64,000 nucleotides of DNA from positions 1-64,000 of IMG/VR virus record IMGVR_UViG_3300029267_002600. One strand, 5' to 3'. This DNA comes from a virus. Positions within the stretch are counted from its first letter, which is position 1; each line of letters begins with the position of its first letter. Below the pieces are notes generated by a model, which saw only the letters and a program-made list of their open reading frames with translations, was not told the origin of the DNA and did no database searches. Of this stretch, positions 29,281 to 48,594 are shown piece by piece. A program made the translations under genes and the position numbers.

Positions 29281-30245
29281 TGGCATGGAAAGGCGATTCA
29301 CGAAGGCATTCATTGGCAAGGAAGGGCGTTAAGACAGCATCAGGAAGATTCAAGTTAAAAGATTATCGTGGTATTGATGGTCGTTTAAAGAAGCCCGACA
29401 TGGTAATGAATCTTGAAGTTGCATTAAAACAGGAAGGGCTTCCAGAATTTGCATGGGATAAGGGCGCAATAGATGGAGAACCATTTGGATGGATAGATTT
29501 CGGTTGGGAAGATGATTATGGTATTGGAATTGGAACATATGTTATAGTAATGAACGGAGATGAATTTGAAGTATATGATCAGAATGGGAATATGCTATTC
29601 AGAACGGATAGCGTTTCAAGGGCAGAATATATTGTAAAGCAATTGACAATTCAGAAATGGAGAGATGATATGCTTGAAAGCCCATATGGAGATCTCATGG
29701 ATTATGTTAAGGATGGGGAACTAACCGAGAAAGGTTTAATGGAATATGATCGGTTTGCAAAATTGATCATGGCTTCGGGGAAAGATAAAAAAAGAGCAGA
29801 ATTAACGGATAAAGAGGAAGGGGCATGGAATTTTGCAATGGAATATTATTTAAATGAAGGCAAATCTGATGAGGAAGCGGATGAGTTGGCATGGAAAGAT
29901 ATTCAGCAGGAGTTTCCAAGATTGAAGAAATATAAAGGGATCATCAACAATAAATCATTGAAATCTAAAGGGCAATTACAGTTCAAAACACCTATCAACG
30001 AATATCAAAGGTTCATGGATAAACTATCAGCAGAAACAATGGCAGATTTGGGTTCAGATGCAGATTACTCCGATCCAAATAAATTTGTTACTGTAATTGT
30101 AGATATTCCTGACAAATGGGATTATACAGAAATAGATGGTTTTAATTACTATGATCACACAAGAAATAGAATCATGCGGTATGCGAAGGAATATAATGCA
30201 AGATTAAAATATGAAGAAAAGGAAGGAAAGGAGAAATATTACTGA
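29280..30245 (+). CDS. leader family protein 15/25
   Basis: MAWKGDSRRHSLARKGVKTASGRFK. Track ORF 29265..30245. Confidence 0.85.
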   Translation: MAWKGDSRRHSLARKGVKTASGRFKLKDYRGIDGRLKKPDMVMNLEVALKQEGLPEFAWDKGAIDGEPFGWIDFGWEDDYGIGIGTYVIVMNGDEFEVYDQNGNMLFRTDSVSRAEYIVKQLTIQKWRDDMLESPYGDLMDYVKDGELTEKGLMEYDRFAKLIMASGKDKKRAELTDKEEGAWNFAMEYYLNEGKSDEEADELAWKDIQQEFPRLKKYKGIINNKSLKSKGQLQFKTPINEYQRFMDKLSAETMADLGSDADYSDPNKFVTVIVDIPDKWDYTEIDGFNYYDHTRNRIMRYAKEYNARLKYEEKEGKEKYY

Positions 30246-31609
30246 TGAATCGCAAAGTATATAGGTATATAGGTAATAATCGCCCAAGTGCAAGGGGTAT
30301 CAGTATGAAAAAAGCAATGAATATACTATTAATGATAGGAATAGTGGCAATGATTTGTATGCCAATAGTGAATGCAATCCAAACGGATAAGATATATGTC
30401 GGCACGACAGGGGCTATTGGTGGTTACAATACCTATGACTATGATTGTTATAGGTATGGAGATTATATCGTATGGGTAAGGTCATTGGATATTTATGATA
30501 GTGGTGGGAATGTCAATCCAGATGGTGATACAATTGATATGTATGATCCGAGTTGGATTATGCTTCATCAAATCTCCACAGGAGAATCATGGAACATAAC
30601 GCCAGATTATGATGCAGGATTGAAAATTGCGCCCAACTACTATTATCATTCACAATCTCCCACGATTTCCAACAATAAGATATTATATGAAGAAGTGTAT
30701 GGTGATGATAATTGGGAAAGAACATTATATATGTATAATATTTCCACAGATGAACATTGGCAAATCCCACATGGTTCATTATCACAATATACAGCAGGGT
30801 ATGAGCATATGATCTATGGAGATTGGATTTATTTCACACATTATGGTGGTGGTGGAAGGCAAATATTTGTATATAATTACGATACAGGGGAAGGTAGAAG
30901 AATTGATGATGGTGTGGTATTAAATTCAAATTTAGGAATGAACGAAGATTTTATGTGGTTTAGTGATACAAGCGGAAGCCCCCACGATCTTATGATATAC
31001 TCATTGGAAACTGATAAATTAACGGAAATCACAGGAGTAAATGTTGGATATAATATCTATGCATCAGATAAATCATCAATGGATGGATTATTGGGCATAA
31101 CCATAAAAAGTGGAGTAGATTTCGATTCATATATAATTGATATGGAAGGCATGAATATCACATCCGAAGGTGGAACGGAATTAATATATTGGGAAAACAT
31201 TGCAGAAGAAAACATTATCGTGGTAGATACTGACGATTCATATAATTCATATGCGCCTTACACAGATGGCAATTATGCGATTTACCAATATTATGAGAAT
31301 GAAGCAGATATAATGATACACGATATTGACGATAATTCAAGCACAGTATTCATAAATTCGGATAATGATGAGGATCTTTATGATTATTATAATACAATGA
31401 TTCTATATTCGACAAATCAGAACAGTTTTACGCACAACAATGATGCAACAGATGATTACGATATTTACAGATCAGAAAGCGAAACCGAGAACATTGGTAA
31501 TACAATAACCGAGATGATACCGTTAATAATTATCATCATGGTTATCGGCGCAATCTTGGGCGCATTTGCAATGTTTGGTGGATCGGCAGGTGATGGGGGT
31601 ATGCTTTGA
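30245..31609 (+). CDS. secreted, C-terminally anchored beta-propeller-like protein (paralogue of 47434..48594)
   Basis: Signal peptide from the alternative ATG at about 30305 (MKKAMNILLMIGIVAMICMPIVNA). Shares PSWIM[LV]H..G.SWNIT, L[YF]MYNIS and DWI.[YF]TH with 47434..48594. C-terminal TM. Confidence 0.7.
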   Translation: MNRKVYRYIGNNRPSARGISMKKAMNILLMIGIVAMICMPIVNAIQTDKIYVGTTGAIGGYNTYDYDCYRYGDYIVWVRSLDIYDSGGNVNPDGDTIDMYDPSWIMLHQISTGESWNITPDYDAGLKIAPNYYYHSQSPTISNNKILYEEVYGDDNWERTLYMYNISTDEHWQIPHGSLSQYTAGYEHMIYGDWIYFTHYGGGGRQIFVYNYDTGEGRRIDDGVVLNSNLGMNEDFMWFSDTSGSPHDLMIYSLETDKLTEITGVNVGYNIYASDKSSMDGLLGITIKSGVDFDSYIIDMEGMNITSEGGTELIYWENIAEENIIVVDTDDSYNSYAPYTDGNYAIYQYYENEADIMIHDIDDNSSTVFINSDNDEDLYDYYNTMILYSTNQNSFTHNNDATDDYDIYRSESETENIGNTITEMIPLIIIIMVIGAILGAFAMFGGSAGDGGML

Positions 31610-34218
31610 TGAAAAGGTTGTTATCAATGATGATAATAATAACAGTATTATTAATGCCATTTACAGCAATAGGGGAAAGCCAAGATAATCTTGTAGAGAA
31701 CGGCACGTTTGATACAGATATGGATGGATGGAATACACAAACTTCACAGAACTTCAGCATCACATCAAATGCAGGAGTATGTGATGTAAATACGACACAC
31801 ACAGATTGGATGCTTGATTTTGATAATACTATGATGAATGCAACCTTATATAATATGACATTAAAAAATGGAGATCCAAGCGAATCTTTCCTGAACAACT
31901 ATACAGAATTGGATGGTTATCAATATCAAGTATTGAATAATACTTTCGATAATTATTCATTGAACGGTTGGGAATATCTTGAACAGCAACCATCAGTATC
32001 GCCTTTCTTGAGAACGAATTTCAGTTCAGCATATAATTTATCTGCCAATTTGAGTTTGGGGGCAGAATCAATTAAATTGCATAATATTACTGATTTTGAT
32101 GATAATTTAACCACAGAAAGATCATCAATAGGATATGAAAATGCTTCCACAGATTTTGTATATAAAACAGGGCATTACGAATGCAATTATACAAATAGCA
32201 GATATGCAGTTAGATGCTGGAATATATCAGAAAGGCGAGTTATAAGCGGAATAAATTCTAATGAATTTGGAATGAATGTCAGCATAATATCAAACGAAAG
32301 TGGATTGCAACAAAATAATGCGTGGATATTAATCGGATATGGTAATAGAGATGAACTGGAATCAAGCCCACAGAATCCACTAAATCATATGACCGTTTAT
32401 ATTAGAAGATACAATTCAACCCATATGCGAAGCCATATGCTATTAAGAAATGCAACAGGTTCAGCATATAATGTTGGATATTCTTACTGGAATTATAGTA
32501 ATTTTACTAACGGTATAAATGTATCAATATATTCTTCTTCACAATCAGAAGTGGGTTATTCAATTAAAGATATATCAACAGATCATATTTTAGCATCAAC
32601 AAAAGGTGGTGGCAGGATAAATTTCATTATAAATTGCATACACACAAGATCTTATCACACAGGAACGGAAAGCATATCTGCCAATATAACACACATGAAA
32701 TCATGGTTAGCCCCGAACAACTTGCCAACATCTGCATCCAGCACATTCAATAAGACGATCAACATAGCTAATGAATCAGTAAGATTGGATATAGAAACTA
32801 ACAGATTGCACTATCATAATGCATTCAATGGATTAGTAAAATCCGCAATTGGAATAAATTCATCACATGGTTCATCAGAATTAAGCAATATATCCACATC
32901 ATCAACATCCTCTTGGTTATCAACGGATGATACAATTAGGAATGTAACTGGCAACTTCACACTATCATCATGGAATTACTTTTCATTGAGTGAAGGTCAA
33001 ACAAGTTTTCCAGCAAAGGCAGTATATTACGATAATCTGACGATTACTGCAACAGAATATGATTGGAACGGAACATACGAATCACAGATTTTTGATAGAA
33101 GTTATTATGCGGATTGGCAAACGATAGAACTTTATTTTAATGATACTGATGGAACATATTCTCCATCATATCCATTTCAAACATTCTTTAATATATCTGT
33201 ATATACAAGAGTAGGCGATCATGCGGTAGTTGATGGCACATGGAGTAGTTGGCAACAAACCGAAAATCAGCAATATTCGTATATTGGTTACTTATTTTGG
33301 CAGGGCAATATTGCATCCAAGAACGGTGAATTTTTCCAATATAAGATAGATATAGATTTATGGAAAAGAGGATTAGAACCGCCGAGATTTTTATTCTCAC
33401 AATTCAGTTCCATCCCTATAAACACATCAATGGAATGGGGTAGTTTTGATCAGAACATTACGAAGCCCTACACTAACTACACTACTTTAAAATACGATTA
33501 CAAAATTCAGGAATTGAATAATACAATCAACGGCACGATTCAGGTATTCATTAATGGATCGTTGATCAATCAGCACAATTACACATTTTTTGAAACAGGA
33601 TGGAACAATGTTGAGATAGATTTAGATTCAATATATAATGTTTCTGGAACTTATAACCTTAACTTTACGATTATAACAAATTTCAACTCAACGAATGGCA
33701 GTTCAACAGTTTGGTTTGATAATGTAGAGATGTTAATTACAAAACAAGCCCCGACAATCACATCCTTTGAAATTCATAATGAAACAGATATTAGGTTTAG
33801 CGGTAACTTTACCGATTTATCAAGGGGTTCAGATTATCAATATCTTGGGGCAGATGGTATAGAATCGGTGAATATAACTGTCGGAGATGTCGTTCTTGAA
33901 ATTGATGATTATACTTATTTAGGTGATGGTAATTTTTCATTCAACTATACTTGGGAAAATACGCCTTTTGAGATAGGGGGGAATATAACTTATGATGCTA
34001 CTTTAACCGTATTGGACATTACAGATCTTCAGGATCAGGAAGTTCAGGAAGTATTAATGCCATCAGCAACAGGATTCATGGTTGCAATCTTATCGGCAGG
34101 ATTAGTAGTTATATTTGTAGTATTGATAATAGGAAGGCATTTGGGAACAGAATGGGATACTATTAAGCCCAAGCATGAAGGTATAATGCCTACAACTTTG
34201 ACAGGAAAAGGGAGATGA
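31609..34218 (+). CDS. large surface glycoprotein with CBM/jelly-roll-like ends and C-terminal TM anchor
   Basis: Signal peptide. NLVENGTFDTDMDGWNTQ and VWFDNVEM resemble CBM_4_9-type modules. Very many sequons. TM near the C-terminus. Confidence 0.65.
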   Translation: MKRLLSMMIIITVLLMPFTAIGESQDNLVENGTFDTDMDGWNTQTSQNFSITSNAGVCDVNTTHTDWMLDFDNTMMNATLYNMTLKNGDPSESFLNNYTELDGYQYQVLNNTFDNYSLNGWEYLEQQPSVSPFLRTNFSSAYNLSANLSLGAESIKLHNITDFDDNLTTERSSIGYENASTDFVYKTGHYECNYTNSRYAVRCWNISERRVISGINSNEFGMNVSIISNESGLQQNNAWILIGYGNRDELESSPQNPLNHMTVYIRRYNSTHMRSHMLLRNATGSAYNVGYSYWNYSNFTNGINVSIYSSSQSEVGYSIKDISTDHILASTKGGGRINFIINCIHTRSYHTGTESISANITHMKSWLAPNNLPTSASSTFNKTINIANESVRLDIETNRLHYHNAFNGLVKSAIGINSSHGSSELSNISTSSTSSWLSTDDTIRNVTGNFTLSSWNYFSLSEGQTSFPAKAVYYDNLTITATEYDWNGTYESQIFDRSYYADWQTIELYFNDTDGTYSPSYPFQTFFNISVYTRVGDHAVVDGTWSSWQQTENQQYSYIGYLFWQGNIASKNGEFFQYKIDIDLWKRGLEPPRFLFSQFSSIPINTSMEWGSFDQNITKPYTNYTTLKYDYKIQELNNTINGTIQVFINGSLINQHNYTFFETGWNNVEIDLDSIYNVSGTYNLNFTIITNFNSTNGSSTVWFDNVEMLITKQAPTITSFEIHNETDIRFSGNFTDLSRGSDYQYLGADGIESVNITVGDVVLEIDDYTYLGDGNFSFNYTWENTPFEIGGNITYDATLTVLDITDLQDQEVQEVLMPSATGFMVAILSAGLVVIFVVLIIGRHLGTEWDTIKPKHEGIMPTTLTGKGR

Positions 34219-34222
34219 TAAT

Positions 34223-37200
34223 ATGAAAAGTAAAATAGTGGCAATGTTGATTGTGATCGGAATATTCGGAATGAACTTCGCAACAATCAGCATGGGCATA
34301 ACGCCCATTGATAATAAGATAATAGCAGAACCAAATCAAAAATCTATTTTAAGTCTAAACCAAATATTATTTTATGATGATGGCACAAATGAAACATGGG
34401 AGAAAAATGAAGAAAAAGATGGTGGAAATATTACACTTAATACAACTTTTGATGGTAGAACTTGTCATAGATTATCTGGCAATCAATCAACATCAGTTGC
34501 ATATGCAATCCAAAACGAAACATTCACAACAGAATATGATAAAATTGAGATATTTTGGATACAAAATACTACAATGAACAATACAGATGATAAAGCAGAT
34601 ATAGGTTTTTATTCAAGGAATTGTTTTGTTGGTACAGGGGTTCAAGAACATAATTCTACACATGATGCTATGTGGGTTCAAAATGGAACTGGAGTTCCTA
34701 TAATATATGAATATATTGAAAAAAACAGAAATCAATGGGTAAATTATAGTTTGAGAGCAGAATGGAATGGAACAGGTTATACTTATGATGTATATGACAA
34801 TGGAACTTATGTAATGTCAGGGGCATCATATAATTTAAGTGTATTTGGTGGATGGATTTCTAACATAACAATTCTCCAATATTCTATCGGCACAGGATCT
34901 TCAGATTCTCATATTTGGTTTGATGAGATTAGTTTCCAAAGTATAACACATATACATTCACCGATAAGGATCAATTCAAATACAGATTTCACTTTTGATA
35001 ATGGAGTAACATCAGGAACAGGGGTTTGGAACGATCCCTACATAATAGATAATTGGATTATCAATGGAACAGGATATGGATCTGGAATATATATAGGCAA
35101 TACAACAAAACATTTTATCATCAGAAATTGCACGATATATAATTCAACAAATTATTCATCATCAGTTTATTATGGTGAATCTGGAATCTGTATATATGAA
35201 ACATATAATGCGACAATCCATAATAATACATTTTGGAATAATACAAGGCAAATTTATATGGAAAATAGCGTTCAGGATGAATATAATATTACCATAACTA
35301 AAAATAAATTCTCTAATTTAGATGAAAGTTTAATTAATTATGGGATTTATATTGAAAATGCAAATAATATAACGATAGATAATAATAATGCCACAGATCT
35401 TTATGGATTCGGAATGGATTTAGATACAATAAATAATGCAACGATAATAAATAATGAAATGAATAATGTTGGAAAAGGATCGCCAGTAATGAGATTTTTT
35501 GTAATGGAAAATTTTACTGTAAGCAATAATACAATCTTAATAGGTTCAATGGTGAATGCAAACGGTATGCTACTTACTGATATAAAAAATGGTCAAATTG
35601 ATTCTAATTATATATTTGATATGCTTATTGCTGGAATGATTATTGCTTCAGGTGGTGGTGGGGTTGATAATGTAACTGTATTTCATAATGAGATAGAAGA
35701 TTGCCAATACGGATTAAGGATTACAACCCCATCAGTAAATAATGTTACGATCTATCATAATAATTTCATAGATAATTCAGTATCACACATAGAAAGTATT
35801 TATTCTTCAACATCAAACAAATTTCATCTTGGGCATCAATTTGGTGGAAATTATTATAATGATTTGATTACCGAAGATTTTTATCATGGTATCAATCAAA
35901 ATCTTGTTGGGATAGATAATTTAAATGATACTGGAATAACCGTTAGTGCCAATGTTAATGATGCTTATCCATTGATTTATCCCTTTGAAACTAACAATAC
36001 TCCAGTTGCGGAAGCAGGGGCAGATAATTACACTCAAAGAGTTCATTATATTTCGGCATACAATTCATCAGATGCAGGTGGATCGGCATTGAATTATACT
36101 TGGAACTTCACATACAATTCTAATCCATACACCTATTACACAATGAATTTCAGTTTTAACTTTGCCATTCAAGGCAATTATACAGTAACATTGAATGTAA
36201 CTGATATTGATGGCAATTGGGATATAGATACAATGACCGTTTATGCCCAACCATTAACAGCAAATGCAGGGGCAGATGATAGTGTTTATCGTGGAAATTC
36301 ATATCAATTTAATGCTTCAGGATCTTTAGGGGCAATTAATAATTGGACATGGAATTTCACACACAATTCAACATCAGAATATCTTTACGGCGAAACACCA
36401 TCCTTTGAATTTTGGGAACTTGGAATAATTAATGTAACATTAAATGTAACAGATGTTTATGGAAGCTATGATTTAGATTGGATGAATCTAACTGTATTGA
36501 ATAATCCACCAACGGCAAATGCAGGAGTTAATCAAGCAGGATTGAAGGGCATCTACACATTAGATGGTTCAGGATCTTCCGATATAGATGGAACGATTCA
36601 GAACTATACATGGAATTTCACATACAACGGCAATCCGCAAACACTTTATCTGACATATCCCATGTTTAACTTCCAGATATTAGGCAACTACTTTATAACT
36701 TTAAATGTAACAGATAATGATGGTGGATATGATCATGATACCACTTGGGTTAATATATCTAATGCAAATCCAGTAGCCAATGCAGGAACGGATATAATAG
36801 GCAAGAGATTGATCACATTTGATGGTTCTTTATCATCTGATGTTGATGGTTCGATTGTAAATTATACTTGGACATTTTCAGATGATGGAACGCCAGTAAC
36901 ATTGTATGGGGTTAGCCCAAGTTATGATTTCAACATATCTCAAGCCCCGATCACAGTAACATTGAATGTAACTGATGATGAGGGTGGCACAGATGAAGAT
37001 ACAGTTCTTGTAACTTTAGTATTTCAATTACCGATAGCGGATGCAGGAGAAGATCAGGGAACTAACAAAGGAACATTCATATTGGATGGTTCTGGATCTT
37101 CCGATCCTGATGGTAGCATAATCAACTGGACATGGACATTCACCTATGATGGTTCTCCAGAAACATTATGGGGAGATCAACCCACATTTGACTTCTTACT

Positions 37201-38073: not shown

Positions 38074-38074
38074 G

Positions 38075-38599: not shown

Positions 38600-38601
38600 T
38601 C

Positions 38602-39752: not shown

Positions 39753-40987
39753 AGTCGGGCAAAGGAGAAGTTAGGAACGGCAAAAGAATGAAAGCGATAA
39801 CCATTATGGTATCGTTAGCCATGCTATTTTCTGGATTAATGACAGTAAATGCAACAGCAGGAAATGTTTGGTGGAATAGCAGTTGGAATTACAGTAAAGA
39901 ATTAACATTCGATAATTCCGATCAATCCGAGAATCTAACGAACTTTCCAGTAATGGTTAGATTGACCACATCAAACTTTGATTATTCAAAGTGCAATGCA
40001 GATGGTTCAGATATTAGATTTGTTGATGGCTTAACCGAATTAAGTTACGAATTTGACTTATGGAACAATACTGGAGAAAGCATCTTATGGGTTAATGTGC
40101 CACAAATAGATGGTGAAAGTTACACAGATTCGATAGATCTTTATTACGGCAATGAGAATGCCGTTTCAGGTGAAGATAAGGAAGGCACATGGCATGAAGA
40201 TTATACGATAGTCTATCACATGGGAGAAGCCAATCTCACTCATAACGATAGCACAGCAAATGAATTAGATGGTACTCCATCAGGATTTAATGGAAGTGAA
40301 ACAACAGATGGTATTGTTGGATTAGCAGATGAATTTGATGGTGTAGATGATTGGATTAATATAACTGGAACAGATCTGTTTCCACCAATGCAAAATTGCA
40401 CACAATCCTTTTGGTTTAAATGGAAAGGAACATTCACTCAATGGATTATTGTAATGGGATGTGGAGATTCAGGTTGGGGAAACACAAGCATAGCCATTAA
40501 TCAGGATGATGGTTGGGCGTTATGTGTTCGAAAAAATATTACTGGCACATCTACTTACAACGGACATTATGGAGATTCATTATATGCAGAAGGAGAATGG
40601 ACAAATATCGTGTGCCGACACGATTATCTGAACAATAATTTTTCAATGTTTGTTAATGGAGAACATATAAAAAGTGTCGAATCATATGGTTTAGGTAGTA
40701 ATGTAGGGCATACTTTGAAACTTGGGGCTTTTGGGAATCCAACTGACGATTATTTTAACGGAACATTGGATGAAGTTAGAAGATCCAATAATGTTCAAAG
40801 TGATGATTGGATAAAGGCCGAATATCTATCTATAACAGACAATTTCATAACATTTGGTAATGAGAATCAAGCCCCATTCAGTTGGTTGCCATCACTTGTA
40901 CCACTTGGATTTGCAGTTATTTTAATGATTGTGATCGTAAATTACTTCAATGAATCAATGGGCATGAAAAAGAAAGGTGGTAGATAG
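39749..40987 (+). CDS. DUF2341 + LamG (concanavalin-A-like lectin) surface protein with C-terminal TM anchor
   Basis: WWNSSWNYSKELTFDN...NLTNFPVMVRL...GSDIRFVD...ILWVNVP...IDLYYGNENA matches the DUF2341 pattern. FDGVDDWINI...FWFKW...MFVNGEHI...FNGTLDEVRRSNNVQSDDWIKAEY matches Laminin_G_3. Confidence 0.75.
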   Translation: MKSGKGEVRNGKRMKAITIMVSLAMLFSGLMTVNATAGNVWWNSSWNYSKELTFDNSDQSENLTNFPVMVRLTTSNFDYSKCNADGSDIRFVDGLTELSYEFDLWNNTGESILWVNVPQIDGESYTDSIDLYYGNENAVSGEDKEGTWHEDYTIVYHMGEANLTHNDSTANELDGTPSGFNGSETTDGIVGLADEFDGVDDWINITGTDLFPPMQNCTQSFWFKWKGTFTQWIIVMGCGDSGWGNTSIAINQDDGWALCVRKNITGTSTYNGHYGDSLYAEGEWTNIVCRHDYLNNNFSMFVNGEHIKSVESYGLGSNVGHTLKLGAFGNPTDDYFNGTLDEVRRSNNVQSDDWIKAEYLSITDNFITFGNENQAPFSWLPSLVPLGFAVILMIVIVNYFNESMGMKKKGGR

Positions 40988-42974: not shown

Positions 42975-43365
42975 AAGGCATAGTCTTGCCAGAAAAGGAA
43001 TAAAAACAGGTGGTAAAAGCATGGGCATAAAGATAAAGCCATCAAAGGATACAATAGAGGGCATTCCATTAAGTAAAAATATTGATGGGCATAAATTCAC
43101 ATTAAGAAAGAGCGGTCAATATCAGAAAGATTTCAAGATTAAGATCTCAATTACAGAAGAAGAATACACTAAATGGAAGGAATTACTTGAAAGAAAAGGA
43201 AATCCAAAAGATATGGCAAATCAGATAGCATTCTTCGACATGATAGATTTTGAATTATCGGCAATAAGGGGCGAGGGAGAGATAGATGAAAAGGAATATG
43301 AGATCAATGAAAGAATCAAGAAGGAAATGGAAATGATAAGGCACAAGTTAAATTTGGATGAGTAA
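42952..43365 (+). CDS. leader family protein 19/25
   Basis: TTG start 4 nt after GGTGAT gives (M)GWKGESRRHSLARKGIKTGGKS. Track ORF 42940..43365. Overlaps the end of the upstream surface-protein gene. Confidence 0.8.
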   Translation: MGWKGESRRHSLARKGIKTGGKSMGIKIKPSKDTIEGIPLSKNIDGHKFTLRKSGQYQKDFKIKISITEEEYTKWKELLERKGNPKDMANQIAFFDMIDFELSAIRGEGEIDEKEYEINERIKKEMEMIRHKLNLDE

Positions 43366-43366
43366 T

Positions 43367-43972
43367 ATGTCATGGAAGGGCGAAAGTAGAAGGCATTCAC
43401 TTGCAAGGAAGGGCATCAAGACAGCACAGCAACCAATGATAGCAAGTGCCATGAACCGATCTCAATCAGATACTTCTCCATATTTTGATATGGATCTATC
43501 AGAACATAATCTTCCTTTCATAGCAGATTTGCACGAAGATCCAGAATATAACGATAGGCGAAGGGAGAGAACGCACGAAGTCATTCTAATGACATCAGAT
43601 GAATATCTTCAAGCCATAGATGTGGGTTCAAAGGGCAGGAGTATTCAGATTCATGATTTCAAGTTAGATCCAATCAAAGAAGATATGGAGAAGGGCGATA
43701 AATTCTCCATGCCGTTCTTGGAGTATGATATGGGATACTCAAAGCCAATATTAAGACAGGAAGGCATTCATAGGGCAGTAGCATCAAAAGAGATGGGGCA
43801 TGAACTGATTCCAGTTGTAGTTGTATATCCAAGCACGATTGGAAAATACAGAAAAGTCAGTATGTTAATGTCAGATCTCATAGCAGGAACAATAGATAAG
43901 ACTAAAATTAGATCGAAAGAACAAAGAAGGCAGGAGTATGAGAAGATTTATGGTGAAAGGTGGGATTTATAA
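43367..43972 (+). CDS. leader family protein 20/25 with ParB-like nuclease (ParB/Srx fold) body
   Basis: MSWKGESRRHSLARKGIKTAQQ. PFLEYDMGYSKPILRQEGIHRAVASKEMGHELIPVVVV fits the ParB N-terminal domain pattern (..dG.HR..A....G...iPv.v). Confidence 0.8.
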   Translation: MSWKGESRRHSLARKGIKTAQQPMIASAMNRSQSDTSPYFDMDLSEHNLPFIADLHEDPEYNDRRRERTHEVILMTSDEYLQAIDVGSKGRSIQIHDFKLDPIKEDMEKGDKFSMPFLEYDMGYSKPILRQEGIHRAVASKEMGHELIPVVVVYPSTIGKYRKVSMLMSDLIAGTIDKTKIRSKEQRRQEYEKIYGERWDL

Positions 43973-43993
43973 TGTTCAGAATGAACTTCTCCA

Positions 43994-44046
43994 TTGGGGG
44001 TAGTTTTGGTTGTTGCCACTTCCAACGAATCCCCCTTTTTTATTTT
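43994..44046 (+). terminator. hairpin plus T-run terminator inside the family array
   Basis: TTGGGGG ... CCCCC long imperfect stem followed by TTTTTTATTTT. Confidence 0.5.
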
Positions 44047-44065
44047 CAATCAGGGGGGCTAACTG

Positions 44066-44185
44066 ATGGAACGGTGTGATAGATGCAACAGGGCAGTTCC
44101 CGATTTTCTTCTTAATAGAGTTGGCAAAATCATGTTATGTGATAATTGTAAGGAGAAGAAGGAGAGATCACAGGGGGCAGTATAG
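44066..44185 (+). CDS. 39-aa zinc-ribbon mini-protein (below the track threshold)
   Basis: MERCDRCNRAVPDFLLNRVGKIMLCDNCKEKKERSQGAV. The stop abuts the TTG start of the next family gene. Confidence 0.45.
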   Translation: MERCDRCNRAVPDFLLNRVGKIMLCDNCKEKKERSQGAV

Positions 44186-44698
44186 TTGGCATGGAAGGGC
44201 GAATCCAGAAGGCATAGTCTTGCAAGGAAGGGGATCAAGACGGCGAAGCCAGTAATAGCAAGTGGTGTTAGCATTGATAAATTAAAACTCCATAAGAGAT
44301 TACCAAAAGATAAATTAGATAAAAAAATGCAAAATTTATTTTATTATGATGTTGAAGGATTAGAATGTTTTGTAAAGCAATATTTGGAAGAAATGTTCTT
44401 TGATGAAGATAAAAGCGTGATAGATATTGTTGATGTTGTATTATGGGGTAGTTATACTAAAAACGAAGAAAAAGTAGGTTCTGATCTTGATTTCTTATTG
44501 ACATATAATGGAACAGCAAGAGAAGATGGCTTATTCAATTGGATTAATCATGATAATCCAGAAGGGCAACTTATGATAATAGATAGATATGGGAATGAAG
44601 TTAAGATAGATATTACTCCTGTTAATCTACATAGGGAATCAACTACTGAAGAAGAATTAATTAATTATTCAAAAATGGAACAAAGGAGAATTAGATAA
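44186..44698 (+). CDS. leader family protein 21/25 with minimal nucleotidyltransferase (Pol-beta superfamily) body
   Basis: TTG start, (M)AWKGESRRHSLARKGIKTAKPVIASG. VVLWGSYTKNEEKVGSDLDFLL is the G-S-x(9-10)-D-x-D NTase signature. Confidence 0.8.
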   Translation: MAWKGESRRHSLARKGIKTAKPVIASGVSIDKLKLHKRLPKDKLDKKMQNLFYYDVEGLECFVKQYLEEMFFDEDKSVIDIVDVVLWGSYTKNEEKVGSDLDFLLTYNGTAREDGLFNWINHDNPEGQLMIIDRYGNEVKIDITPVNLHRESTTEEELINYSKMEQRRIR

Positions 44699-45150
44699 TG
44701 GCATGGAAGGGCGAATCAAGAAGGCATAGTCTTGCAAGGAAGGGCATCAAGACGGCGAACAAGCCATTAAAATCAGCAGGAAAGAAGTTCAAAAGCCAAG
44801 CAGATCCAGAAGTGTATAAAAAATGGGATAAATTAGTCAATATGAGTTATTCCGAATTGAAGCGATTCATTGATACTGAAGAAGGAAGGAAGGCAGGATT
44901 GAGCAAAGAACAAGCCCGAAAGCAAGGCATCAAATACGGAAGGGAAAGTGCCAAATGGATACTGAAGATGAAGAAAACCCCTGTTAATGAATGGACAGAA
45001 ACCATGTGGGAGTGGGCAAGAAGGCAGAATAGTTTCATAAGCAGAATGCGTGGAAATAAGGGAAAATTGTATGATGAAGAAGGCAATAAAACGAGAAAGC
45101 ACACTTCATTATTGATTTGGGGGCATGATCCCACAAAGGAGAATAAGTAA
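44698..45150 (+). CDS. leader family protein 22/25 with DUF3140-like body
   Basis: MAWKGESRRHSLARKGIKTANKP. VNMSYSELKRFIDTEEG...HTSLLIWGHDP recalls DUF3140 (VNMS..EL..WL ... W.YSLMNWGHDP). This rests on memory only. Confidence 0.8.
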   Translation: MAWKGESRRHSLARKGIKTANKPLKSAGKKFKSQADPEVYKKWDKLVNMSYSELKRFIDTEEGRKAGLSKEQARKQGIKYGRESAKWILKMKKTPVNEWTETMWEWARRQNSFISRMRGNKGKLYDEEGNKTRKHTSLLIWGHDPTKENK

Positions 45151-45731
45151 TGGCTTGGAAGGGCGAATCACGAAGGCATAGTCTTGCAAGGAAGGGGATT
45201 AAGACAGTAATTAGTGATAAACGAAAGGTTGATGTATCTACATTTGTTGCGAAAGGCAAATTACATCCACAATTATTTACATTTAAGAACAACCCATATA
45301 TGATTGATCAGGGCTATAAAATGAAAGAAATACGGTGGAGTTATCCTGAAGATAAATCAGAAAATTATTTTTTTCATGCAACATTTTTACCAAAATTAGA
45401 ATCAATCAAAAAGGAAGGTTTAAAAGTAGATACAGAAAAATTATGGGATATTTCAGGATCAGGAAAATCATATTTCACTCATATTCCAATAACAGCAATA
45501 GGTTGGGTGATGGGATATATGTATGGGGAAGATGAATATGATGATGAAGAAGATATTTCAATAGTGTTATTAAGGATTCCACCGAAATATAAGATGGAAT
45601 ACGATCACAAAGGAACTTTGAATAGCACACCAAGAAGTAACAATTATTTCACAGAAGAAAATGTTGATCCAAACGATATTGAGATAAAAACAAAGGGTGG
45701 TTGGATTCCTTTAAAGGAGTTTGATATATGA
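45150..45731 (+). CDS. leader family protein 23/25, tentative ADP-ribosyltransferase-like body
   Basis: MAWKGESRRHSLARKGIKTVISDKRKVDVSTFVAKG. FFHAT..I.KEGL, GSGKSYFT and YFTEENV are arranged like an H-Y-E ART fold. This is very tentative. Confidence 0.8.
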   Translation: MAWKGESRRHSLARKGIKTVISDKRKVDVSTFVAKGKLHPQLFTFKNNPYMIDQGYKMKEIRWSYPEDKSENYFFHATFLPKLESIKKEGLKVDTEKLWDISGSGKSYFTHIPITAIGWVMGYMYGEDEYDDEEDISIVLLRIPPKYKMEYDHKGTLNSTPRSNNYFTEENVDPNDIEIKTKGGWIPLKEFDI

Positions 45732-46309
45732 GTTGGAAAGGCGAGAGCAGAAGGCATAGTCTTGCAAGGAAGGGCATTAAGACGGCGAAAGGAGTAAATG
45801 TAGTTGGAAAAACAGATGTTTTATATCCAAGCGTTCAAGATTATTGGCACACAATATTCCCTTTAAAAGTATTCAGATGTGGAGATTCGGAAGAAAAATC
45901 AAAGGTAAGATTCTTTTCAGATGGAGATACAGCAGAAGGATATTGTGATGCGTTTGGTGGAGAGATATATGAAGAAATAATAACAATGAAGAACCCATTA
46001 ATATTACATTCGGGATTGAAAAATAGTTTAACAAAAGAAGAAATGAAAAAATTATTCAAAATATTATTTATAGATAGAGAAAAGAACTACAAAGAGTTGA
46101 TAAAATATAGAAAAGAACAGGGGAAATATACATCAGAATGGGAAGATCTTGAAGAACATGATTTGGGTTTGAGAATAAGAGGGGATGGTTGGAAACCGAT
46201 CATTGAATATGCTATGAAGGAAGGTTATGATGGAATAATAACAAGAGATACAGATGCATTATTAACACATGGAACTGTTAGTTATATAACTTGGAAAGGA
46301 GATAATTAA
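45728..46309 (+). CDS. leader family protein 24/25
   Basis: MSWKGESRRHSLARKGIKTAKGVNV. ATGA overlap. Confidence 0.85.
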   Translation: MSWKGESRRHSLARKGIKTAKGVNVVGKTDVLYPSVQDYWHTIFPLKVFRCGDSEEKSKVRFFSDGDTAEGYCDAFGGEIYEEIITMKNPLILHSGLKNSLTKEEMKKLFKILFIDREKNYKELIKYRKEQGKYTSEWEDLEEHDLGLRIRGDGWKPIIEYAMKEGYDGIITRDTDALLTHGTVSYITWKGDN

Positions 46310-47145
46310 TGGCATGGAAGGGCGAATCACGAAGGCATAGTCTTGCAAGGAAAGGCGTTAAAACAGCATCAGGAAGAAAGAGATCGGATTATTATTCAAA
46401 GGAAAATATTGAGAAAAGGGCAAAGGAAATGGAAGAAATGTACAACAAACAAACCGAAGATAGATTAGAATATCTAAAGAAATACAATCCAGATTGGTTT
46501 GTTGATAAATTAAATGTAGTAAAATGGGGGGATCGGAAATATCGTGAAGATTGGTTAGAGATAACAGGAAGGAACAGAAAAAAGAGATTGCCAGAAGCCA
46601 TTGGAGAAACGGTTGGAATATCAATGGGTTGGGTATCTGACCATTCAGGGTTGGTTCTTCTTACAGATGCAAAATTACTTGAAATTAAAGATAATGGTTA
46701 TGTAATTGTTGAAGTTGATGGAAATGAAGTTGAATTACCATCATACAGAATCAAATGGATTAAAAGAAAAGAGAAGAAGAAAGAACCGAAGAAAAGACCG
46801 AAGAAGATTCCAAAGAATATATCTGGATTAAAATTTAAATTAGAATCAGATACTTACAAAATTGAACAATATACGGCGAATACAGAATGGAATGGCATTC
46901 CGATCTCATTTCATGTTACCATGCGATATGGCACATTTGTAAAATCATGGTATGTAACTTACGGCATCAGTTACATGGAGAAATCTGGATGGATGGGTAT
47001 TGGAGAATTACTTAAAGGCAAGAGTGGAATCAAAAGTAGAAAAGAAGCAAGAGAACTGGCACATGAATTGATAGAAAATGCTTCGATAGAAGAATTAGAA
47101 TCATTATCTGAAGGATATAAGCGGAAAATACAAGAACGAGTTTAA
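46309..47145 (+). CDS. leader family protein 25/25
   Basis: MAWKGESRRHSLARKGVKTASGRKR. TAATG overlap. Internal poly-Lys linker KRKEKKKEPKKRPKKIPK. Confidence 0.85.
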   Translation: MAWKGESRRHSLARKGVKTASGRKRSDYYSKENIEKRAKEMEEMYNKQTEDRLEYLKKYNPDWFVDKLNVVKWGDRKYREDWLEITGRNRKKRLPEAIGETVGISMGWVSDHSGLVLLTDAKLLEIKDNGYVIVEVDGNEVELPSYRIKWIKRKEKKKEPKKRPKKIPKNISGLKFKLESDTYKIEQYTANTEWNGIPISFHVTMRYGTFVKSWYVTYGISYMEKSGWMGIGELLKGKSGIKSRKEARELAHELIENASIEELESLSEGYKRKIQERV

Positions 47146-47148
47146 TCC

Positions 47149-47170: not shown

Positions 47171-47185
47171 CGTTAAGCATAACTG

Positions 47186-47452
47186 ATGAACAGAAGAAAG
47201 ATTGCAGGTATGGTTGTCTTAATACTATTAGGTTCATTTTTCATAGTAAATCAGATTGGCAATGATACTTGGGATGATACCCATTGGGGTGGGGATACTG
47301 GAGAAGAAGAATATCATGTTCCACAGCAAAGTGATGGCACAAGAGATGGAGATGGTGGAGAAGTTTGTAGTATGATCTTTTTCATTGGTTTCATTGGTGG
47401 AACAGGTTATTATATCAAATGGAAGCGGAATAAATGTGTAAATCAGGATTAA
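47186..47452 (+). CDS. small membrane protein (2 TM)
   Basis: N- and C-terminal hydrophobic helices with an acidic Gly-rich loop. Confidence 0.55.
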   Translation: MNRRKIAGMVVLILLGSFFIVNQIGNDTWDDTHWGGDTGEEEYHVPQQSDGTRDGDGGEVCSMIFFIGFIGGTGYYIKWKRNKCVNQD

Positions 47453-48594
47453 TTCTGATAATGTTCGGCATTATACTGATTGCAACAATTCCAGTTCAAG
47501 CACAGGAAATAACGATAAAATCAATAGATCCATCCGAGTATTATGATTCCAAGCCATGCATTTGGGGGAATTACATTGTTTGGAGAAGGGCGATCAATCA
47601 GAATGACAATGAGTATATCGAATTGAGAGAACCATCATGGATAATGGTTCATGACATTGATAAAGGAAGGTCTTGGAACATTACCGAGAAAAACTTGCTT
47701 ATGTATGGATCAGATATTTATTGCCATGCCGAAGCCCCTGAAATTCAAGACGGCAGAATCATCTATGAGGCACAGGGAAGCGGAAATTCGTGGGATACTC
47801 GTTTATTCATGTATAATATATCCAGCAAGAAAACTTGGGAGATTCCATTGAAATCCACAGATTACGCACATGGGCATCTGCATCTTATACATGACGATTG
47901 GATTGCCTACACCCACAAGGAGAATGGAAAACGTCAAGCATACTTGCTGAACTATGCGGATGGTAATTACAGAACGATAGTTGGCAAGAACGAGAATTAT
48001 AGTGTTTATGGCATGGTCATGTGGGAAGATACTGTTGTGATCACAGCATTGAACAATTCTGATGGTTTTGAGATCTTGACATATGACATAGGCACAACAA
48101 TGAGAGAAAGCATAGGGATTGGCTTCAATTACAGCAAGGCGATTGCCACCACGATCCACGAAGATAGGGTTGGCATCAATATTCTGGAAGAACAGGACAA
48201 TTCAACCCAATGGAATTGCTACATTTACGATCTTGAAAGCGATACATTAACCAAATTGCAAGATGGGATATACGGATTGCTTATTTGGGGCAATCAGATG
48301 GCTTACGAGCATGATGGCAATATCTTTATTCAGAATCAAGGTCAGGATATTGTAATCACTTCGATAGGAAAGCAGTATTTGGGCGATATTTACGATAATG
48401 CATTGGTTTGGATGGACAATAGCAATTCCGAAGGCGATCATGGTGATGCAAGGGATAATACAGATGTCTTTGTTAGGAAGCGGATCACTCCCGAAGAAAT
48501 CTTTTGGAACAATTGGTATTTCATCTTGATTCTGATAGTGATAATTGTGATCGGATTATTGTTTAGAGGAAGCGGAAAGGAAGGGATGGTGTAA
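47434..48594 (+). CDS. secreted, C-terminally anchored beta-propeller-like protein (paralogue of 30245..31609)
   Basis: Signal peptide ...IATIPVQA/QE. Shared motifs with 30245..31609. C-terminal TM FILILIVIIVIGLLF. Confidence 0.7.
   Translation: MCKSGLILIMFGIILIATIPVQAQEITIKSIDPSEYYDSKPCIWGNYIVWRRAINQNDNEYIELREPSWIMVHDIDKGRSWNITEKNLLMYGSDIYCHAEAPEIQDGRIIYEAQGSGNSWDTRLFMYNISSKKTWEIPLKSTDYAHGHLHLIHDDWIAYTHKENGKRQAYLLNYADGNYRTIVGKNENYSVYGMVMWEDTVVITALNNSDGFEILTYDIGTTMRESIGIGFNYSKAIATTIHEDRVGINILEEQDNSTQWNCYIYDLESDTLTKLQDGIYGLLIWGNQMAYEHDGNIFIQNQGQDIVITSIGKQYLGDIYDNALVWMDNSNSEGDHGDARDNTDVFVRKRITPEEIFWNNWYFILILIVIIVIGLLFRGSGKEGMV

What the first reader, a model, noticed from the sequence alone, without database searches (positions are those of the whole stretch)
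30245..48594. The cargo array is interleaved with five giant lectin/PKD/beta-helix surface proteins and two beta-propeller paralogues
The family runs 19047-30245, 38075-39752, 42952-43972 and 44186-47145. The gaps are filled by membrane-anchored surface proteins: 30245 (propeller-like), 31609, 34223, 39749 (DUF2341+LamG) and 40977. A second propeller-like paralogue (47434) closes the region, sharing PSWIM[LV]H..G.SWNIT, MYNIS and DWI.[YF]TH with 30245. Co-linear, co-oriented and often overlapping genes (for example 42952 starts inside 40977) suggest co-expression of receptor-binding or adhesion proteins with the tagged cargo. That fits a virion-associated or cell-surface-associated delivery role.
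Basis: partly seen in the sequence, partly recalled or inferred. Interest (0 to 1): 0.65.

Follow-up and report, generated by a model that had tools for sequence, protein, structure and literature searches.

The report
Surface glycoprotein genes interleaved with leader-tagged genes
A 74-kb circular, virus-like element, probably of methane-cycling archaea, mixes genes for sugar-coated membrane-anchored adhesion proteins with 25 genes for unrelated soluble proteins that share one short N-terminal tag, and the layout recurs in related and unrelated elements, so the two sets probably work together.

Summary
Six larger genes fill the gaps, and each encodes a protein with an N-terminal signal sequence and a C-terminal membrane anchor.

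- **Domains:** 34223 has a beta-helix plus 7 PKD domains. 39749 has DUF2341 plus LamG. 30245 and 47434 are paralogues (E 5e-37), and the 30245 model is a beta-propeller. "Lectin" for 31606 and 40977 rests only on sub-threshold hits.
- **Two compartments:** Four of the six are 2.4-2.8 times enriched in N-glycosylation sequons. The tagged proteins are not enriched.
- **Operon layout:** Genes abut or overlap. The only TATA-like box inside the block lies 27 nt before the first tagged gene.
- **Conservation:** Seven membrane-protein genes keep their order in relatives of 52-136 kb, while the number of tagged genes varies. Tagged genes also sit next to non-homologous LamG/PKD glycoproteins in unrelated contigs. 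Other arrays have none nearby.
- **The element:** It is a 74.2-kb circle with no recognisable capsid gene. One ATPase matches only the lemon-shaped Haloferax virus LSV-48N.

Co-expression is well supported. Particle association and delivery remain inference. I file it as a new variant of a known kind.

The parts
11965..14388 (+). 807-aa membrane protein with a signal sequence and a C-terminal TM segment. It is the first gene of the conserved membrane-protein backbone.
   Evidence: Hydropathy. Sequons 13 versus 6.6 expected, p 0.013. Orthologues at 37-72% identity in L001, L003, L005, L006, L033 and L043. No Pfam or PHROG hit.
14370..17612 (+). Membrane protein of about 1030-1075 aa with a C-terminal TM segment. 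Its signal peptide lies upstream of the first canonical start codon at 14520.
   Evidence: Sequons 21 versus 12.4, p 0.009. Orthologues at 35-72% identity in all relatives.
17620..17973 (+). 117-aa polytopic hydrophobic protein, conserved in all relatives.
18359..18937 (+). 192-aa glycoprotein with a signal peptide and a TM anchor. A hairpin plus T-run follows it, and a TATA-like box lies at 19020.
   Evidence: Sequons 11 versus 3.7, p 0.0005. Gap sequence. TATA scan.
19047..30245 (+). 15 leader-tagged genes, plus a 69-aa basic ORF at 25090-25299.
   Evidence: No TM segments, and sequons at expectation.
30245..31609 (+). Beta-propeller paralogue 1 (454 aa): cleavable-looking signal peptide, propeller ectodomain, TM anchor and a C-terminal ...GGML tail.
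31606..34218 (+). 870-aa glycoprotein with a signal peptide and TM anchor and a conserved cytoplasmic tail. It is mosaic relative to its orthologues.
   Evidence: Sequons 51 versus 18.1, p 0.0005. Only weak CBM_4_9 and CBM30 hits. Orthologue segments.
34223..37966 (+). 1247-aa glycoprotein with a signal peptide and TM anchor: right-handed beta-helix (NosD-like) plus 7 PKD domains.
   Evidence: Pfam. Sequons 65 versus 25.3, p 0.0005. The PKD repeats show up as DNA repeat family D5.
37966..38073 (+). 35-aa ORF, MARKGIPKRDGSGKGKGLNKGRGGC..., whose start overlaps the stop codon of 34223.
   Evidence: Its 3' end and the following leader start are 92% identical to 25272-25357 (family D4).
38075..39752 (+). 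3 leader-tagged genes. In the relatives examined beyond the PKD giant (L006/L007, L022, L023/L024), the orthologue of the third (39132) is the first leader gene after the PKD/beta-helix giant.
39749..40987 (+). 412-aa glycoprotein with a signal peptide and TM anchor: DUF2341 plus Laminin_G_3.
   Evidence: Pfam. Sequons 15 versus 6.3, p 0.0005.
40977..42974 (+). 665-aa glycoprotein with a signal peptide and TM anchor: an N-terminal jelly-roll-like domain (weak evidence) plus about four Ig-like repeats.
   Evidence: DNA repeats D6 and D7. Sequons 29 versus 10.7, p 0.0005.
42952..43972 (+). 2 leader-tagged genes. The first starts inside 40977.
43973..44185 (+). 213-nt gap with a terminator-like hairpin plus T-run and a 39-aa zinc-ribbon ORF. 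It is a possible transcription-unit boundary.
44186..47145 (+). 5 leader-tagged genes. 44186 carries an NTP_transf_2 domain and 44698 carries DUF3140.
47186..47452 (+). 88-aa protein with two TM segments, directly upstream of the second propeller gene.
47434..48594 (+). Beta-propeller paralogue 2 (386 aa): signal peptide, TM anchor and a C-terminal ...EGMV tail.

Best explanation
Window 11965-48594 is the membrane-protein module of a roughly 74.2-kb circular, single-strand-coded, virus-like element. Its host is probably archaeal. The module may be the particle or envelope module.

A conserved backbone of N-glycosylated membrane proteins, each with a signal peptide and a C-terminal anchor, is exported to the outer face of the infected-cell membrane, and hence of any membrane-derived particle. 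The backbone consists of 11965, 14520, 18359, the propeller 30245, 31606 and the beta-helix/PKD protein 34223. This genome adds 39749, 40977 and the second propeller 47434. These proteins carry adhesion-type ectodomains.

Cassettes of leader-tagged genes have expanded into this operon and are transcribed and translated with it. Their products stay on the cytoplasmic or lumenal side. They share only a basic N-terminal tag that is modelled with low confidence. The tag most likely acts as a common handle that brings unrelated proteins to the same assembly site, which could be the genome, an inner membrane-associated protein, or the conserved cytoplasmic tails of the glycoproteins. The tagged proteins would then leave with the particle and act in the next cell.

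Shown: topology signals, sequon contrast, domain content, paralogy, propeller fold, gene packing, conserved synteny, and recurrence next to non-homologous glycoproteins.

Inferred: co-transcription, viral nature, particle association, the role of the tag, and delivery.
For: **(1) Two compartments.**
- Seven of nine larger membrane proteins are sequon-enriched against their own shuffles. Examples are 51 versus 18.1 and 65 versus 25.3, both p 0.0005.
- The 25 tagged proteins (28 versus 23.7, p 0.2) and nine replication-type proteins (11 versus 12.0) are not enriched.
- The tagged proteins have no TM segment.

**(2) Tag plus cargo architecture.**
- The first 40 residues carry a net charge of +6.5, and the rest carries -4.9 per 100 aa.
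- In the AF2 model of 20655, the tag has pLDDT 40-54 and the cargo core has 80-88.
- The 25 cargo parts show no mutual similarity.
- The cargo of 20655 has leaderless homologues.
- A leader profile finds 769 cluster representatives, almost always at residues 2-13.

**(3) One expression unit.**
- Junctions between surface and leader genes range from -23 to +4 nt.
- The only TATA-like box inside the block is at 19020.

**(4) Conserved backbone.**
- Backbone order is kept in relatives of 52-136 kb and 34-45% GC, while leader-gene number varies from about 5 to 25.

**(5) Independent recurrence.**
- L057, L077/L054, L044, L076 and L010 have leader genes beside non-homologous signal-peptide proteins, most of them sequon-rich, and Pfam finds LamG, DUF2341 or PKD domains in three of them.

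**(6) Virus-like element.**
- Two assemblies are 100% identical over the stretches compared but permuted. Window plus a 10,206-nt joining piece gives 74,206 nt, which equals 74,347 minus a k = 141 overlap.
- The ATPase 4053 matches only the lemon-shaped Haloferax virus LSV-48N, at E 2e-26. That virus also has no recognisable capsid gene (PMC12714723).
- Leader genes occur in an IMG/VR contig and were found in only 3 loci among 185,579 species' genomes.

**(7) Conserved cytoplasmic tails.**
- Fourteen of the 15 propeller-family members end in ...GGM[LI], and 47434 ends in ...EGMV. The tail of 31606 is also conserved.
Against: - No capsid, portal, terminase or known archaeal structural protein was detected in Pfam or PHROGs, so 'particle' is unproven.
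- No protease gene or clear cleavage site goes with the tag.
- In some proteins the leader motif is internal and repeated (P0068, P0105, P0066). That fits a binding motif better than a cleaved targeting peptide.
- Several arrays have no surface-protein gene within 7-20 kb.
- Five tagged proteins are conserved across many related loci, four of them in the backbone-sharing relatives (21775, 24633, 27974, 39132, 43358). They look like core components rather than interchangeable cargo.
- Operon structure rests on spacing and consensus motifs only.
- One relative is labelled as a bacterial WOR-3 MAG contig.
Confidence: 0.45

Rival explanations
1. The two sets are neighbours without functional coupling. 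The leader family is a fast-expanding multigene family of intracellular host-takeover or anti-defence proteins, and its shared N-terminus is itself the functional part, for example a motif that binds a nucleic acid or a host factor. New copies spread by recombination at the conserved 60-100 nt of leader DNA and accumulate in the most plastic part of the genome. That part also holds the fast-evolving surface-protein genes. Nothing is packaged.
For: - Leader DNA forms direct-repeat families of 9-18 copies. Two pairs are near-identical: 96% over 106 nt at 20650/21135, and 92% over 86 nt at 25272/38046. The second pair brackets a 12.8-kb segment.
- Leader-gene number varies widely on a fixed backbone.
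- The motif occurs internally and in tandem in P0068 and P0105.
- Arrays exist without nearby surface proteins.
- Cargo domains with any annotation are enzyme-like or DNA-related: NTP_transf_2, GNAT, RQC, HTH and Prok-JAB.
Against: - Recurrence next to non-homologous glycoproteins in unrelated contigs is not expected from chance plasticity alone.
- Tight overlaps argue for deliberate co-translation.
- No leader motif was found in the 10.2 kb outside the window, and within the window all 25 leader genes lie in one contiguous stretch of about 28 kb between the membrane-protein genes.
Confidence: 0.3
2. The element is not a virus. It is a plasmid-like replicon that remodels the host cell surface, for adhesion to partners, cell-cell contact or vesicle budding. 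The tagged proteins would be moved by contact- or vesicle-dependent transfer, or would act in the host.
For: - No capsid or packaging genes were found.
- The replicon is circular.
- There are at least ten membrane proteins, far more than a simple envelope needs.
- One relative comes from a cold seep, where consortium-forming Methanosarcinales live (PMC9357000). One distant relative sits in a Methanosarcinales MAG.
Against: - No conjugation, partition or typical plasmid replication genes were recognised.
- The only cultured relative of the ATPase is a lemon-shaped virus that also lacks a recognisable capsid gene.
- PHROG hits (topoisomerase-like, radical SAM, methylases) are typical of virus genomes.
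- One leader-bearing contig is in IMG/VR.
Confidence: 0.17
3. The surface proteins are host-derived passenger genes, used for example for superinfection exclusion or as decoys. They would have nothing to do with particle structure or with the leader family.
For: PKD, beta-helix and LamG domains are common in cellular archaeal surface proteins (established knowledge; Pfam hits).
Against: - The propeller family has only 14 members in 5.8 billion proteins, and those whose contigs were examined lie in elements of this kind.
- Seven backbone genes keep their order and orientation across relatives of 52-136 kb.
- No cellular homologues were seen.
Confidence: 0.08

Closest known systems
Capsid-targeting sequences of phage internal proteins (T4 IPI-III with the gp21 prohead protease; phiKZ-like inner-body proteins). 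Cited from my own knowledge.
   Same: A short conserved N-terminal peptide is fused to unrelated proteins encoded in the structural region. The idea of co-packaging and delivery with the genome is the same.
   Different: No HK97-type capsid, portal, terminase or prohead protease was found here. No defined cleavage site is visible. The tag is 20-38 aa, strongly basic, and also occurs as an internal repeat elsewhere. The host is probably archaeal. There are 25 copies, against 3-5 in T4.
Lemon- or spindle-shaped archaeal viruses, especially Haloferax virus LSV-48N (PP151251.1; PMC12714723)
   Same: Both have a circular dsDNA genome and no recognisable capsid gene. Both have a block of small hydrophobic proteins plus 800-900-aa proteins with a signal peptide and TM anchor. 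They share a 'DnaA-like' P-loop ATPase (30.7% identity, E 2e-26).
   Different: Only that one gene is shared. This genome is three times larger. LSV-48N has no leader family and no PKD, LamG or propeller set. The morphology of this element is unknown.
Polymorphic toxin or effector families with a conserved N-terminal trafficking domain. Cited from my own knowledge.
   Same: One conserved N-terminus is joined to many unrelated C-terminal domains, in tandem arrays, with recombination at the shared 5' sequence.
   Different: No toxin domains and no interspersed immunity genes were seen. The N-terminus is a short, probably disordered peptide rather than a folded trafficking domain. The genes sit on a virus-like element.
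Archaeal cell-surface adhesin-like proteins (PKD / right-handed beta-helix / LamG, with a signal peptide and C-terminal TM anchor, N-glycosylated). Cited from my own knowledge.
   Same: Domain types, topology and sequon richness match 34223 and 39749, and by topology and sequons also 31606 and 40977.
   Different: The genes are on a mobile element and embedded in arrays of tagged soluble proteins. The propeller family and 31606 have no Pfam family at all.

Membership tests
PKD / right-handed beta-helix surface protein (Pfam PKD_4, Beta_helix, NosD) | Domain hits above the Pfam gathering score | tested here: met
   For 34223: PKD_4 at 204.5 bits in 7 stretches, Beta_helix at 85.9 bits and NosD at 45.1 bits.
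DUF2341 + LamG (Laminin_G_3) protein | Both domains above the gathering score | tested here: met
   For 39749: Laminin_G_3 at 53.8 bits and DUF2341 at 39 bits. The same pair occurs in L057 at 16158-20051.
Lectin / carbohydrate-binding module (for 31606 and 40977) | A CBM or lectin domain hit above the gathering score | tested here: not met
   Only sub-threshold hits: CBM_4_9 at 18.1 bits (cut-off 25.9), CBM30 at 15.2 bits (cut-off 27) and Sialidase-like_CBM at 14.9 bits (cut-off 27). There were no significant sequence matches to solved structures.
Beta-propeller fold (30245 and 47434) | Repeated four-stranded blades closing into a ring, with structural matches to solved propellers | tested here: met
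   The AF2 model has pLDDT 78 and pTM 0.75 and is all-beta. Foldseek matches TolB, S9 peptidases and 2gop at E about 1e-9, with TM-score 0.71-0.73 normalised to the target. No sequence family matches.
Membrane protein with a signal peptide, a C-terminal anchor and N-glycosylation (archaeal type) | N-terminal signal sequence, single C-terminal TM segment, and N-x-S/T sequons above what composition predicts | tested here: met
   Hydropathy. Shuffle tests give p 0.0005 for 18359, 31606, 34223, 39749 and 40977, while the propellers are not enriched. Glycosylation itself cannot be tested here.
Phage capsid-targeting-sequence system (T4-like) | Conserved N-terminal peptide on unrelated proteins | tested here: met
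Phage capsid-targeting-sequence system (T4-like) | Prohead protease and HK97-type capsid, portal and terminase genes in the same genome | tested here: not met
   None was found in Pfam or PHROGs over the 64-kb window. The precomputed Pfam hits for the remaining 10 kb show none either.
Phage capsid-targeting-sequence system (T4-like) | Tagged proteins present in particles, with the tag removed at a defined site | not testable with these tools
   This needs particle proteomics and N-terminal sequencing.
Spindle- or lemon-shaped archaeal viruses | Small hydrophobic two-helix major capsid protein of the SSV1 VP1 / His1 VP21 type | tested here: inconclusive
   No Pfam or PHROG structural hit was found. 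The 117-aa hydrophobic protein 17620 is a candidate by composition only.
Spindle- or lemon-shaped archaeal viruses | Circular dsDNA genome and a DnaA-like/AAA ATPase shared with members | tested here: met
   Circular permutation. The ATPase matches LSV-48N at E 2e-26 and phrog_5484.
Twin-arginine (Tat) signal peptide | S/T-R-R-x-F-L-K followed by a hydrophobic h-region and an A-x-A site | tested here: not met
   The leader contains S-R-R-H-S-L-A, but what follows is charged (KGVKTNIDGGRRFD), and no TM or h-region is present in any leader protein.
Polymorphic toxin systems | Variable C-terminal toxin domains with adjacent immunity genes | tested here: not met
   No toxin families were found among 149 representatives or among the window's leader proteins that were scanned. 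Leader genes follow one another directly, with no interspersed small immunity genes.

The most novel reading that the evidence does not exclude
A diverse, previously undescribed lineage of archaeal membrane-containing viruses or vesicle-forming elements (39-136 kb) uses one short basic N-terminal tag to load dozens of unrelated proteins into particles. The particle surface carries a battery of modular adhesin glycoproteins. This would be a natural, programmable protein-delivery system. It would also be a new solution to virion protein packaging, without any known capsid or protease.
Probability: 0.3. Interest if true: 0.85.

Novelty: new variant of a known kind. Interest (0 to 1): 0.62.

Why it matters
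If the tagged proteins really travel with particles decorated by these glycoproteins, three things follow.
- It would be the first packaging or delivery tag described for an archaeal virus.
- It would give a handle for identifying virion modules in the many archaeal virus genomes that have no recognisable capsid gene.
- It would offer a short portable peptide that could be tested for loading foreign proteins into archaeal particles or vesicles.

Even without delivery, the leader defines a large protein family that I found in no database. It has at least 769 clusters at 50% identity and is absent from Pfam, PHROGs, the PDB, INPHARED and the searched literature. It marks a group of circular elements in cold-seep and other unidentified samples, possibly infecting Methanosarcinales. 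The sequon contrast also gives a simple sequence-only way to separate exported from internal proteins in such genomes.

Tried and rejected
- **Pfam, PHROGs and PDB on the leader.** Searching the leader alone, whole leader proteins and a leader profile gave nothing.
- **tblastn of the leader against 50,697 phage records.** No match.
- **Full-text search for the motif.** No paper found. Two broader literature searches gave nothing relevant.
- **The search for homologous proteins with the 42-aa leader profile.** It returned one hit only, because of the word index. The exhaustive search replaced it.
- **Capsid, portal, terminase or spike families.** Pfam and PHROG scans covered the recognisable non-leader ORFs of 50 aa or more in the window, and none was found.
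- **Sequence search of 31606, 40977 and 14520 against the PDB.** Nothing meaningful.
- **JAB/MPN assignment of 39132.** The motif seen by eye (E...HxHx8SxxD, invariant in orthologues) was not confirmed by Pfam or by an orthologue profile against the PDB. I keep it only as a lead.
- **Fold search of the 20655 cargo model.** No match better than E 0.5.
- **Sigma-70 promoter and intrinsic-terminator scan.** Counts were at the level of the shuffles (121 versus 105; 10 versus 7.4), so it is uninformative for a probable archaeal element.
- **Candidate promoter word GCAAARGTATA.** Not enriched.
- **Borg-like element.** Rejected: almost no tandem repeats, and the genome is a 74-kb circle.
- **Fragment of a cellular genome.** Rejected: no tRNAs, no cellular core genes, and a circular permutation.
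- **Tat signal.** Rejected for lack of an h-region.

Full report
**Observation.** All sizeable ORFs of the window lie on the + strand, and GC is about 35%. A six-frame scan for the leader core finds exactly 25 genes, in four runs: 19047-30245 (15 genes), 38075-39752 (3), 42952-43972 (2) and 44186-47145 (5). Within the leader, Ser is coded by both TCN and AGY, Leu by TTG and CTT, and Arg by AGA and CGA. Selection therefore acts on the peptide, not on the DNA.

Six larger genes fill the gaps, at 30245, 31606/31609, 34223, 39749, 40977 and 47434. Each product has an N-terminal hydrophobic signal-like segment and one C-terminal transmembrane segment.
- Pfam confirms Beta_helix/NosD plus seven PKD stretches in 34223, and DUF2341 plus Laminin_G_3 in 39749.
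- 31606 and 40977 give only sub-threshold carbohydrate-binding-module and Ig-like hits and nothing against the PDB.
- 30245 and 47434 are paralogues, with 29% identity and E 5e-37.

The propeller family has only 14 members in 5.8 billion proteins. An AF2 model of 30245 built on their alignment has pLDDT 78 and pTM 0.75. It matches TolB, S9-peptidase and trilobed-protease propellers at E about 1e-9, with TM-score up to 0.73 normalised to the target. 'Propeller-like' is therefore confirmed at fold level. The title double-counts 30245, and 'giant' fits only 34223.

**Two compartments.** I shuffled each protein and counted N-x-S/T sequons.
- Sequons are 2.4-3 times enriched in 18359, 31606, 34223, 39749 and 40977 (all p 0.0005).
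- They are mildly enriched in 11965 and 14520.
- They are at expectation in the 25 leader proteins taken together (28 versus 23.7) and in nine replication-type proteins (11 versus 12.0).

The leader proteins have no hydrophobic segments. Their first 40 residues carry a net charge of +6.5, and the rest is acidic. The simplest reading is that the gap proteins are exported and N-glycosylated, which points to an archaeal host, while the tagged proteins stay on the cytoplasmic side. The conserved SWNIT and MYNIS motifs of the propellers are themselves sequons.

**The tag.**
- The 25 cargo parts show no similarity to each other.
- The cargo of 20655 has homologues that lack the leader altogether.
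- In an AF2 model of 20655, the first 52 residues have pLDDT 40-54 and the cargo core has 80-88.
- A leader profile run against 1.84 billion cluster representatives finds 769 proteins at E up to 0.001. The match almost always starts at residues 2-13.
- After the core come two alternative linker types, NIDxxRRFDVSNFVARG or A.KPM.SMGK.
- A few proteins carry the motif internally and in tandem.
- The tag is absent from Pfam, PHROGs, the PDB, 50,697 phage records and the searched literature.
- Annotated cargo domains are rare and diverse: NTP_transf_2, DUF3140, DUF5661, RQC, GNAT, Prok-JAB and HTH.

**Gene packing.** Junctions between leader genes and surface-protein genes range from -23 to +4 nt. 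The gaps longer than 100 nt between 18937 and 48594 lie after 18937, 25085, 37966, 43972 and 47145, and the last four hold small ORFs. A hairpin plus T-run follows 18937 and another follows 43972. Inside the block, the only TATA-like box lies at 19020, 27 nt before the first leader gene. Others lie at 18087 and 49185. This fits one to three long transcription units that contain both gene classes. It is consensus-level evidence only.

**Comparative genomics.** Relatives on contigs of 51.6, 67, 97, 100 and 136 kb (34-45% GC) keep the following order:
- a protein of about 800 aa, one of about 1100 aa, a polytopic protein of about 118 aa, and a glycoprotein of about 190 aa;
- the leader array;
- in some relatives, a 420-aa beta-helix protein and further leader genes;
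- the propeller, a protein of about 870 aa, and the beta-helix/PKD giant;
- the orthologue of 39132, followed by further membrane proteins.

Seven backbone proteins have orthologues at 29-76% identity, while the number of leader genes varies from about 5 to 25. The interleaving is therefore better described as leader cassettes expanding into a stable glycoprotein operon. Near-identical leader DNA copies fit recombination at the shared 5' sequence: 96% over 106 nt, and 92% over 86 nt flanking a 12.8-kb segment. 31606 is mosaic relative to its orthologues, as host-recognition proteins often are.

Five leader proteins (21775, 24633, 27974, 39132, 43358) recur in many related loci, and the first four are kept in the backbone-sharing relatives. 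The rest are variable.

A scan of metagenome contigs returned 63 leader loci. In longer contigs from divergent elements, leader genes again lie beside or between large signal-peptide proteins, most of them sequon-rich. This holds for L057 (92.7 kb), L077/L054 (39 kb), L044, L076 and the Methanosarcinales-MAG contig L010. These proteins have no detectable homology to the window's backbone, apart from one weak DUF2341-region match of 39749 in L057. Three of them carry Laminin_G_3, DUF2341 or PKD domains. Arrays in L011/L012, L073, L087, L072, L027 and L009 have no such neighbour within the 7-20 kb available. The association is recurrent and partly independent of shared ancestry, but it is not universal.

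**What the element is.** A second assembly (74,347 bp) is 100% identical to the window over the stretches compared but is permuted. It joins the window's end to its start through 10,206 nt, and 64,000 + 10,206 = 74,206 = 74,347 - 141. That is the terminal overlap expected for a circular contig assembled with k = 141. I found no leader-like motif in that extra stretch.
- The window has no tRNAs and almost no tandem repeats.
- No capsid, portal, terminase or known archaeal structural family is detected. Recognisable genes are for replication and modification: a topoisomerase-like protein (phrog_6247, 3e-79), radical SAM/DUF5131, DNA methylase, PD-(D/E)XK nuclease, SprT-like, GNAT and PAPS reductase.
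- The P-loop ATPase 4053 has a single relative among cultured viruses. It is the 'DnaA-like' protein of the lemon-shaped Haloferax virus LSV-48N (30.7% identity, E 2e-26). That genome also lacks any recognisable capsid gene (PMC12714723) and has a comparable block of small hydrophobic and 800-900-aa proteins with a signal peptide and TM anchor.
- One relative comes from a South China Sea cold seep (PMC9357000).

I conclude that this is a circular virus-like element, probably archaeal and possibly of a membrane-containing or spindle type. Neither the host nor the morphology is shown.

**Mechanism.** The model I favour (confidence 0.45) has three parts.
- The glycoproteins are displayed on the outside of the infected-cell membrane, and of particles derived from it, as adhesion or receptor-binding proteins.
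- The co-expressed tagged proteins stay inside.
- The tagged proteins use the basic tag as a common handle for recruitment to the assembly site and for co-delivery.

Conserved short cytoplasmic tails are candidate docking points. Fourteen of the 15 propeller-family members end in ...GGM[LI], and 47434 ends in ...EGMV. The tail of 31606 is also conserved.

The main rival (0.30) is that the tag is itself a functional binding motif of an intracellular multigene family that merely accumulates in the plastic part of the genome. Internal tandem copies of the motif and arrays without surface genes favour this view. A plasmid-like, cell-surface-remodelling reading (0.17) and a passenger-gene reading (0.08) remain possible.

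**Comparison and novelty.** The surface proteins are built from known domain types, and the idea of an N-terminal packaging tag is known from T4-like phages. However, the defining companions of that system (protease, HK97 capsid) were looked for and not found, so this is not a member of it. The tag, the propeller family, 31606, 11965 and 14520 belong to no described family. I rate the finding as a new variant of a known kind, with interest 0.62. The reading as a programmable archaeal protein-delivery system has a probability of about 0.3.

Noticed in passing
whole window; L014 and L017 (ERZ27256778 k141_2134957): The genome is a circle of about 74,206 bp with every recognisable gene on one strand. 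A second assembly is 100% identical over the stretches compared but permuted, and its length exceeds window plus joining piece by exactly 141 nt, the assembler's k. No capsid, portal or terminase gene is recognisable.
   Followed up: yes
window 4053-5378: This P-loop ATPase has a single relative among 50,697 phage and archaeal-virus records. It is the 'DnaA-like' protein of the lemon-shaped Haloferax virus LSV-48N (30.7% identity, E 2e-26). No other gene is shared.
   Followed up: yes
window 31540-31606 and 48530-48591; alignment A2: Fourteen of the 15 propeller-family members end, right after the TM segment, in ...G-G-M-[L/I]-COOH. The window's second paralogue ends in EGMV. This is a conserved extreme C-terminal cytoplasmic motif of unknown role.
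   Followed up: partly
window 39132-39752; L023 17223-17834; L022 11539-12042; L006 15328-15888: This leader protein is the first leader gene after the PKD/beta-helix giant in the relatives examined beyond that gene. It carries an invariant E...H-x-H-x8-S-x-x-D pattern that resembles a JAB/MPN+ metalloprotease motif. Neither Pfam nor an orthologue profile against the PDB supports the assignment.
   Followed up: partly
window 37966-38073 and 25090-25299: Two small basic ORFs of 35 and 69 aa both end in PKKNRKVK. Each is followed by the same 28-nt sequence and an MAWKNESRRHSLAR leader gene (86 nt at 92% identity). These direct repeats bracket a 12.8-kb segment holding seven leader genes and three surface-protein genes.
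   Followed up: partly
window 14370-14520: The signal peptide of the 1030-aa membrane protein (…IRYTVIFVAIIILILPLNQVVQA|D) is encoded upstream of the first ATG, GTG or TTG of its reading frame and overlaps the end of 11965. This suggests a non-canonical start codon, or coupling to the upstream gene.
   Followed up: partly
P0068, P0105, P0066: In a few proteins from other contigs the leader motif is internal and repeated two or three times. In P0068 and P0105 it alternates with a second motif (Q.RRHAHSARGG) in very acidic proteins. The motif can therefore act as a repeat unit and is not only an N-terminal tag.
   Followed up: no
P0005-P0008 versus window 20655-21143 (alignment A5): The cargo domain of 20655 has homologues of 130-153 aa that lack the leader entirely, so the leader is a portable add-on.
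   Followed up: partly
window 31606-34218 versus L003, L004 and L006: 31606 is mosaic. Its N-terminal 230 residues align only with the L004 orthologue, and its C-terminal 440-490 residues align with L003 and L006. This domain-swapping pattern is typical of host-recognition proteins.
   Followed up: no
L057 7031-8602: In a divergent 92.7-kb contig, a 524-aa protein with a signal peptide and TM anchor sits inside a leader array. It carries Peptidase_C10/C39-like, thrombospondin type 3 and MopE-like motifs.
   Followed up: no
L002 and L008 (GCA_023132105.1, JAGLYS010000294.1): A 27-kb contig of this element family is deposited in a MAG labelled 'candidate division WOR-3 bacterium'. Given the archaeal-type features of the family, this is probably a binning error.
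   Followed up: no
L010 4590-7661; L011 5058-6569 and 16467-19055: Distant leader-bearing contigs carry genes interrupted by inteins with LAGLIDADG endonuclease domains. One of them is an ERCC3/XPB-like helicase.
   Followed up: no
window 47186-47452 and about 18200-18310: Small membrane-protein ORFs (88 aa with two TM segments; about 36 aa with one) sit in the 'intergenic' gaps just before 47434 and 18359. Relatives have similar 30-37-aa genes at the second position.
   Followed up: no
window 62606-63619: A 337-aa protein matches phrog_6247 'DNA topoisomerase' (3e-79). It has homologues at 35-41% identity in 84 phage records, and the listed ones are bacterial phages (Flavobacterium, Xylella, Xanthomonas and others).
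   Followed up: partly
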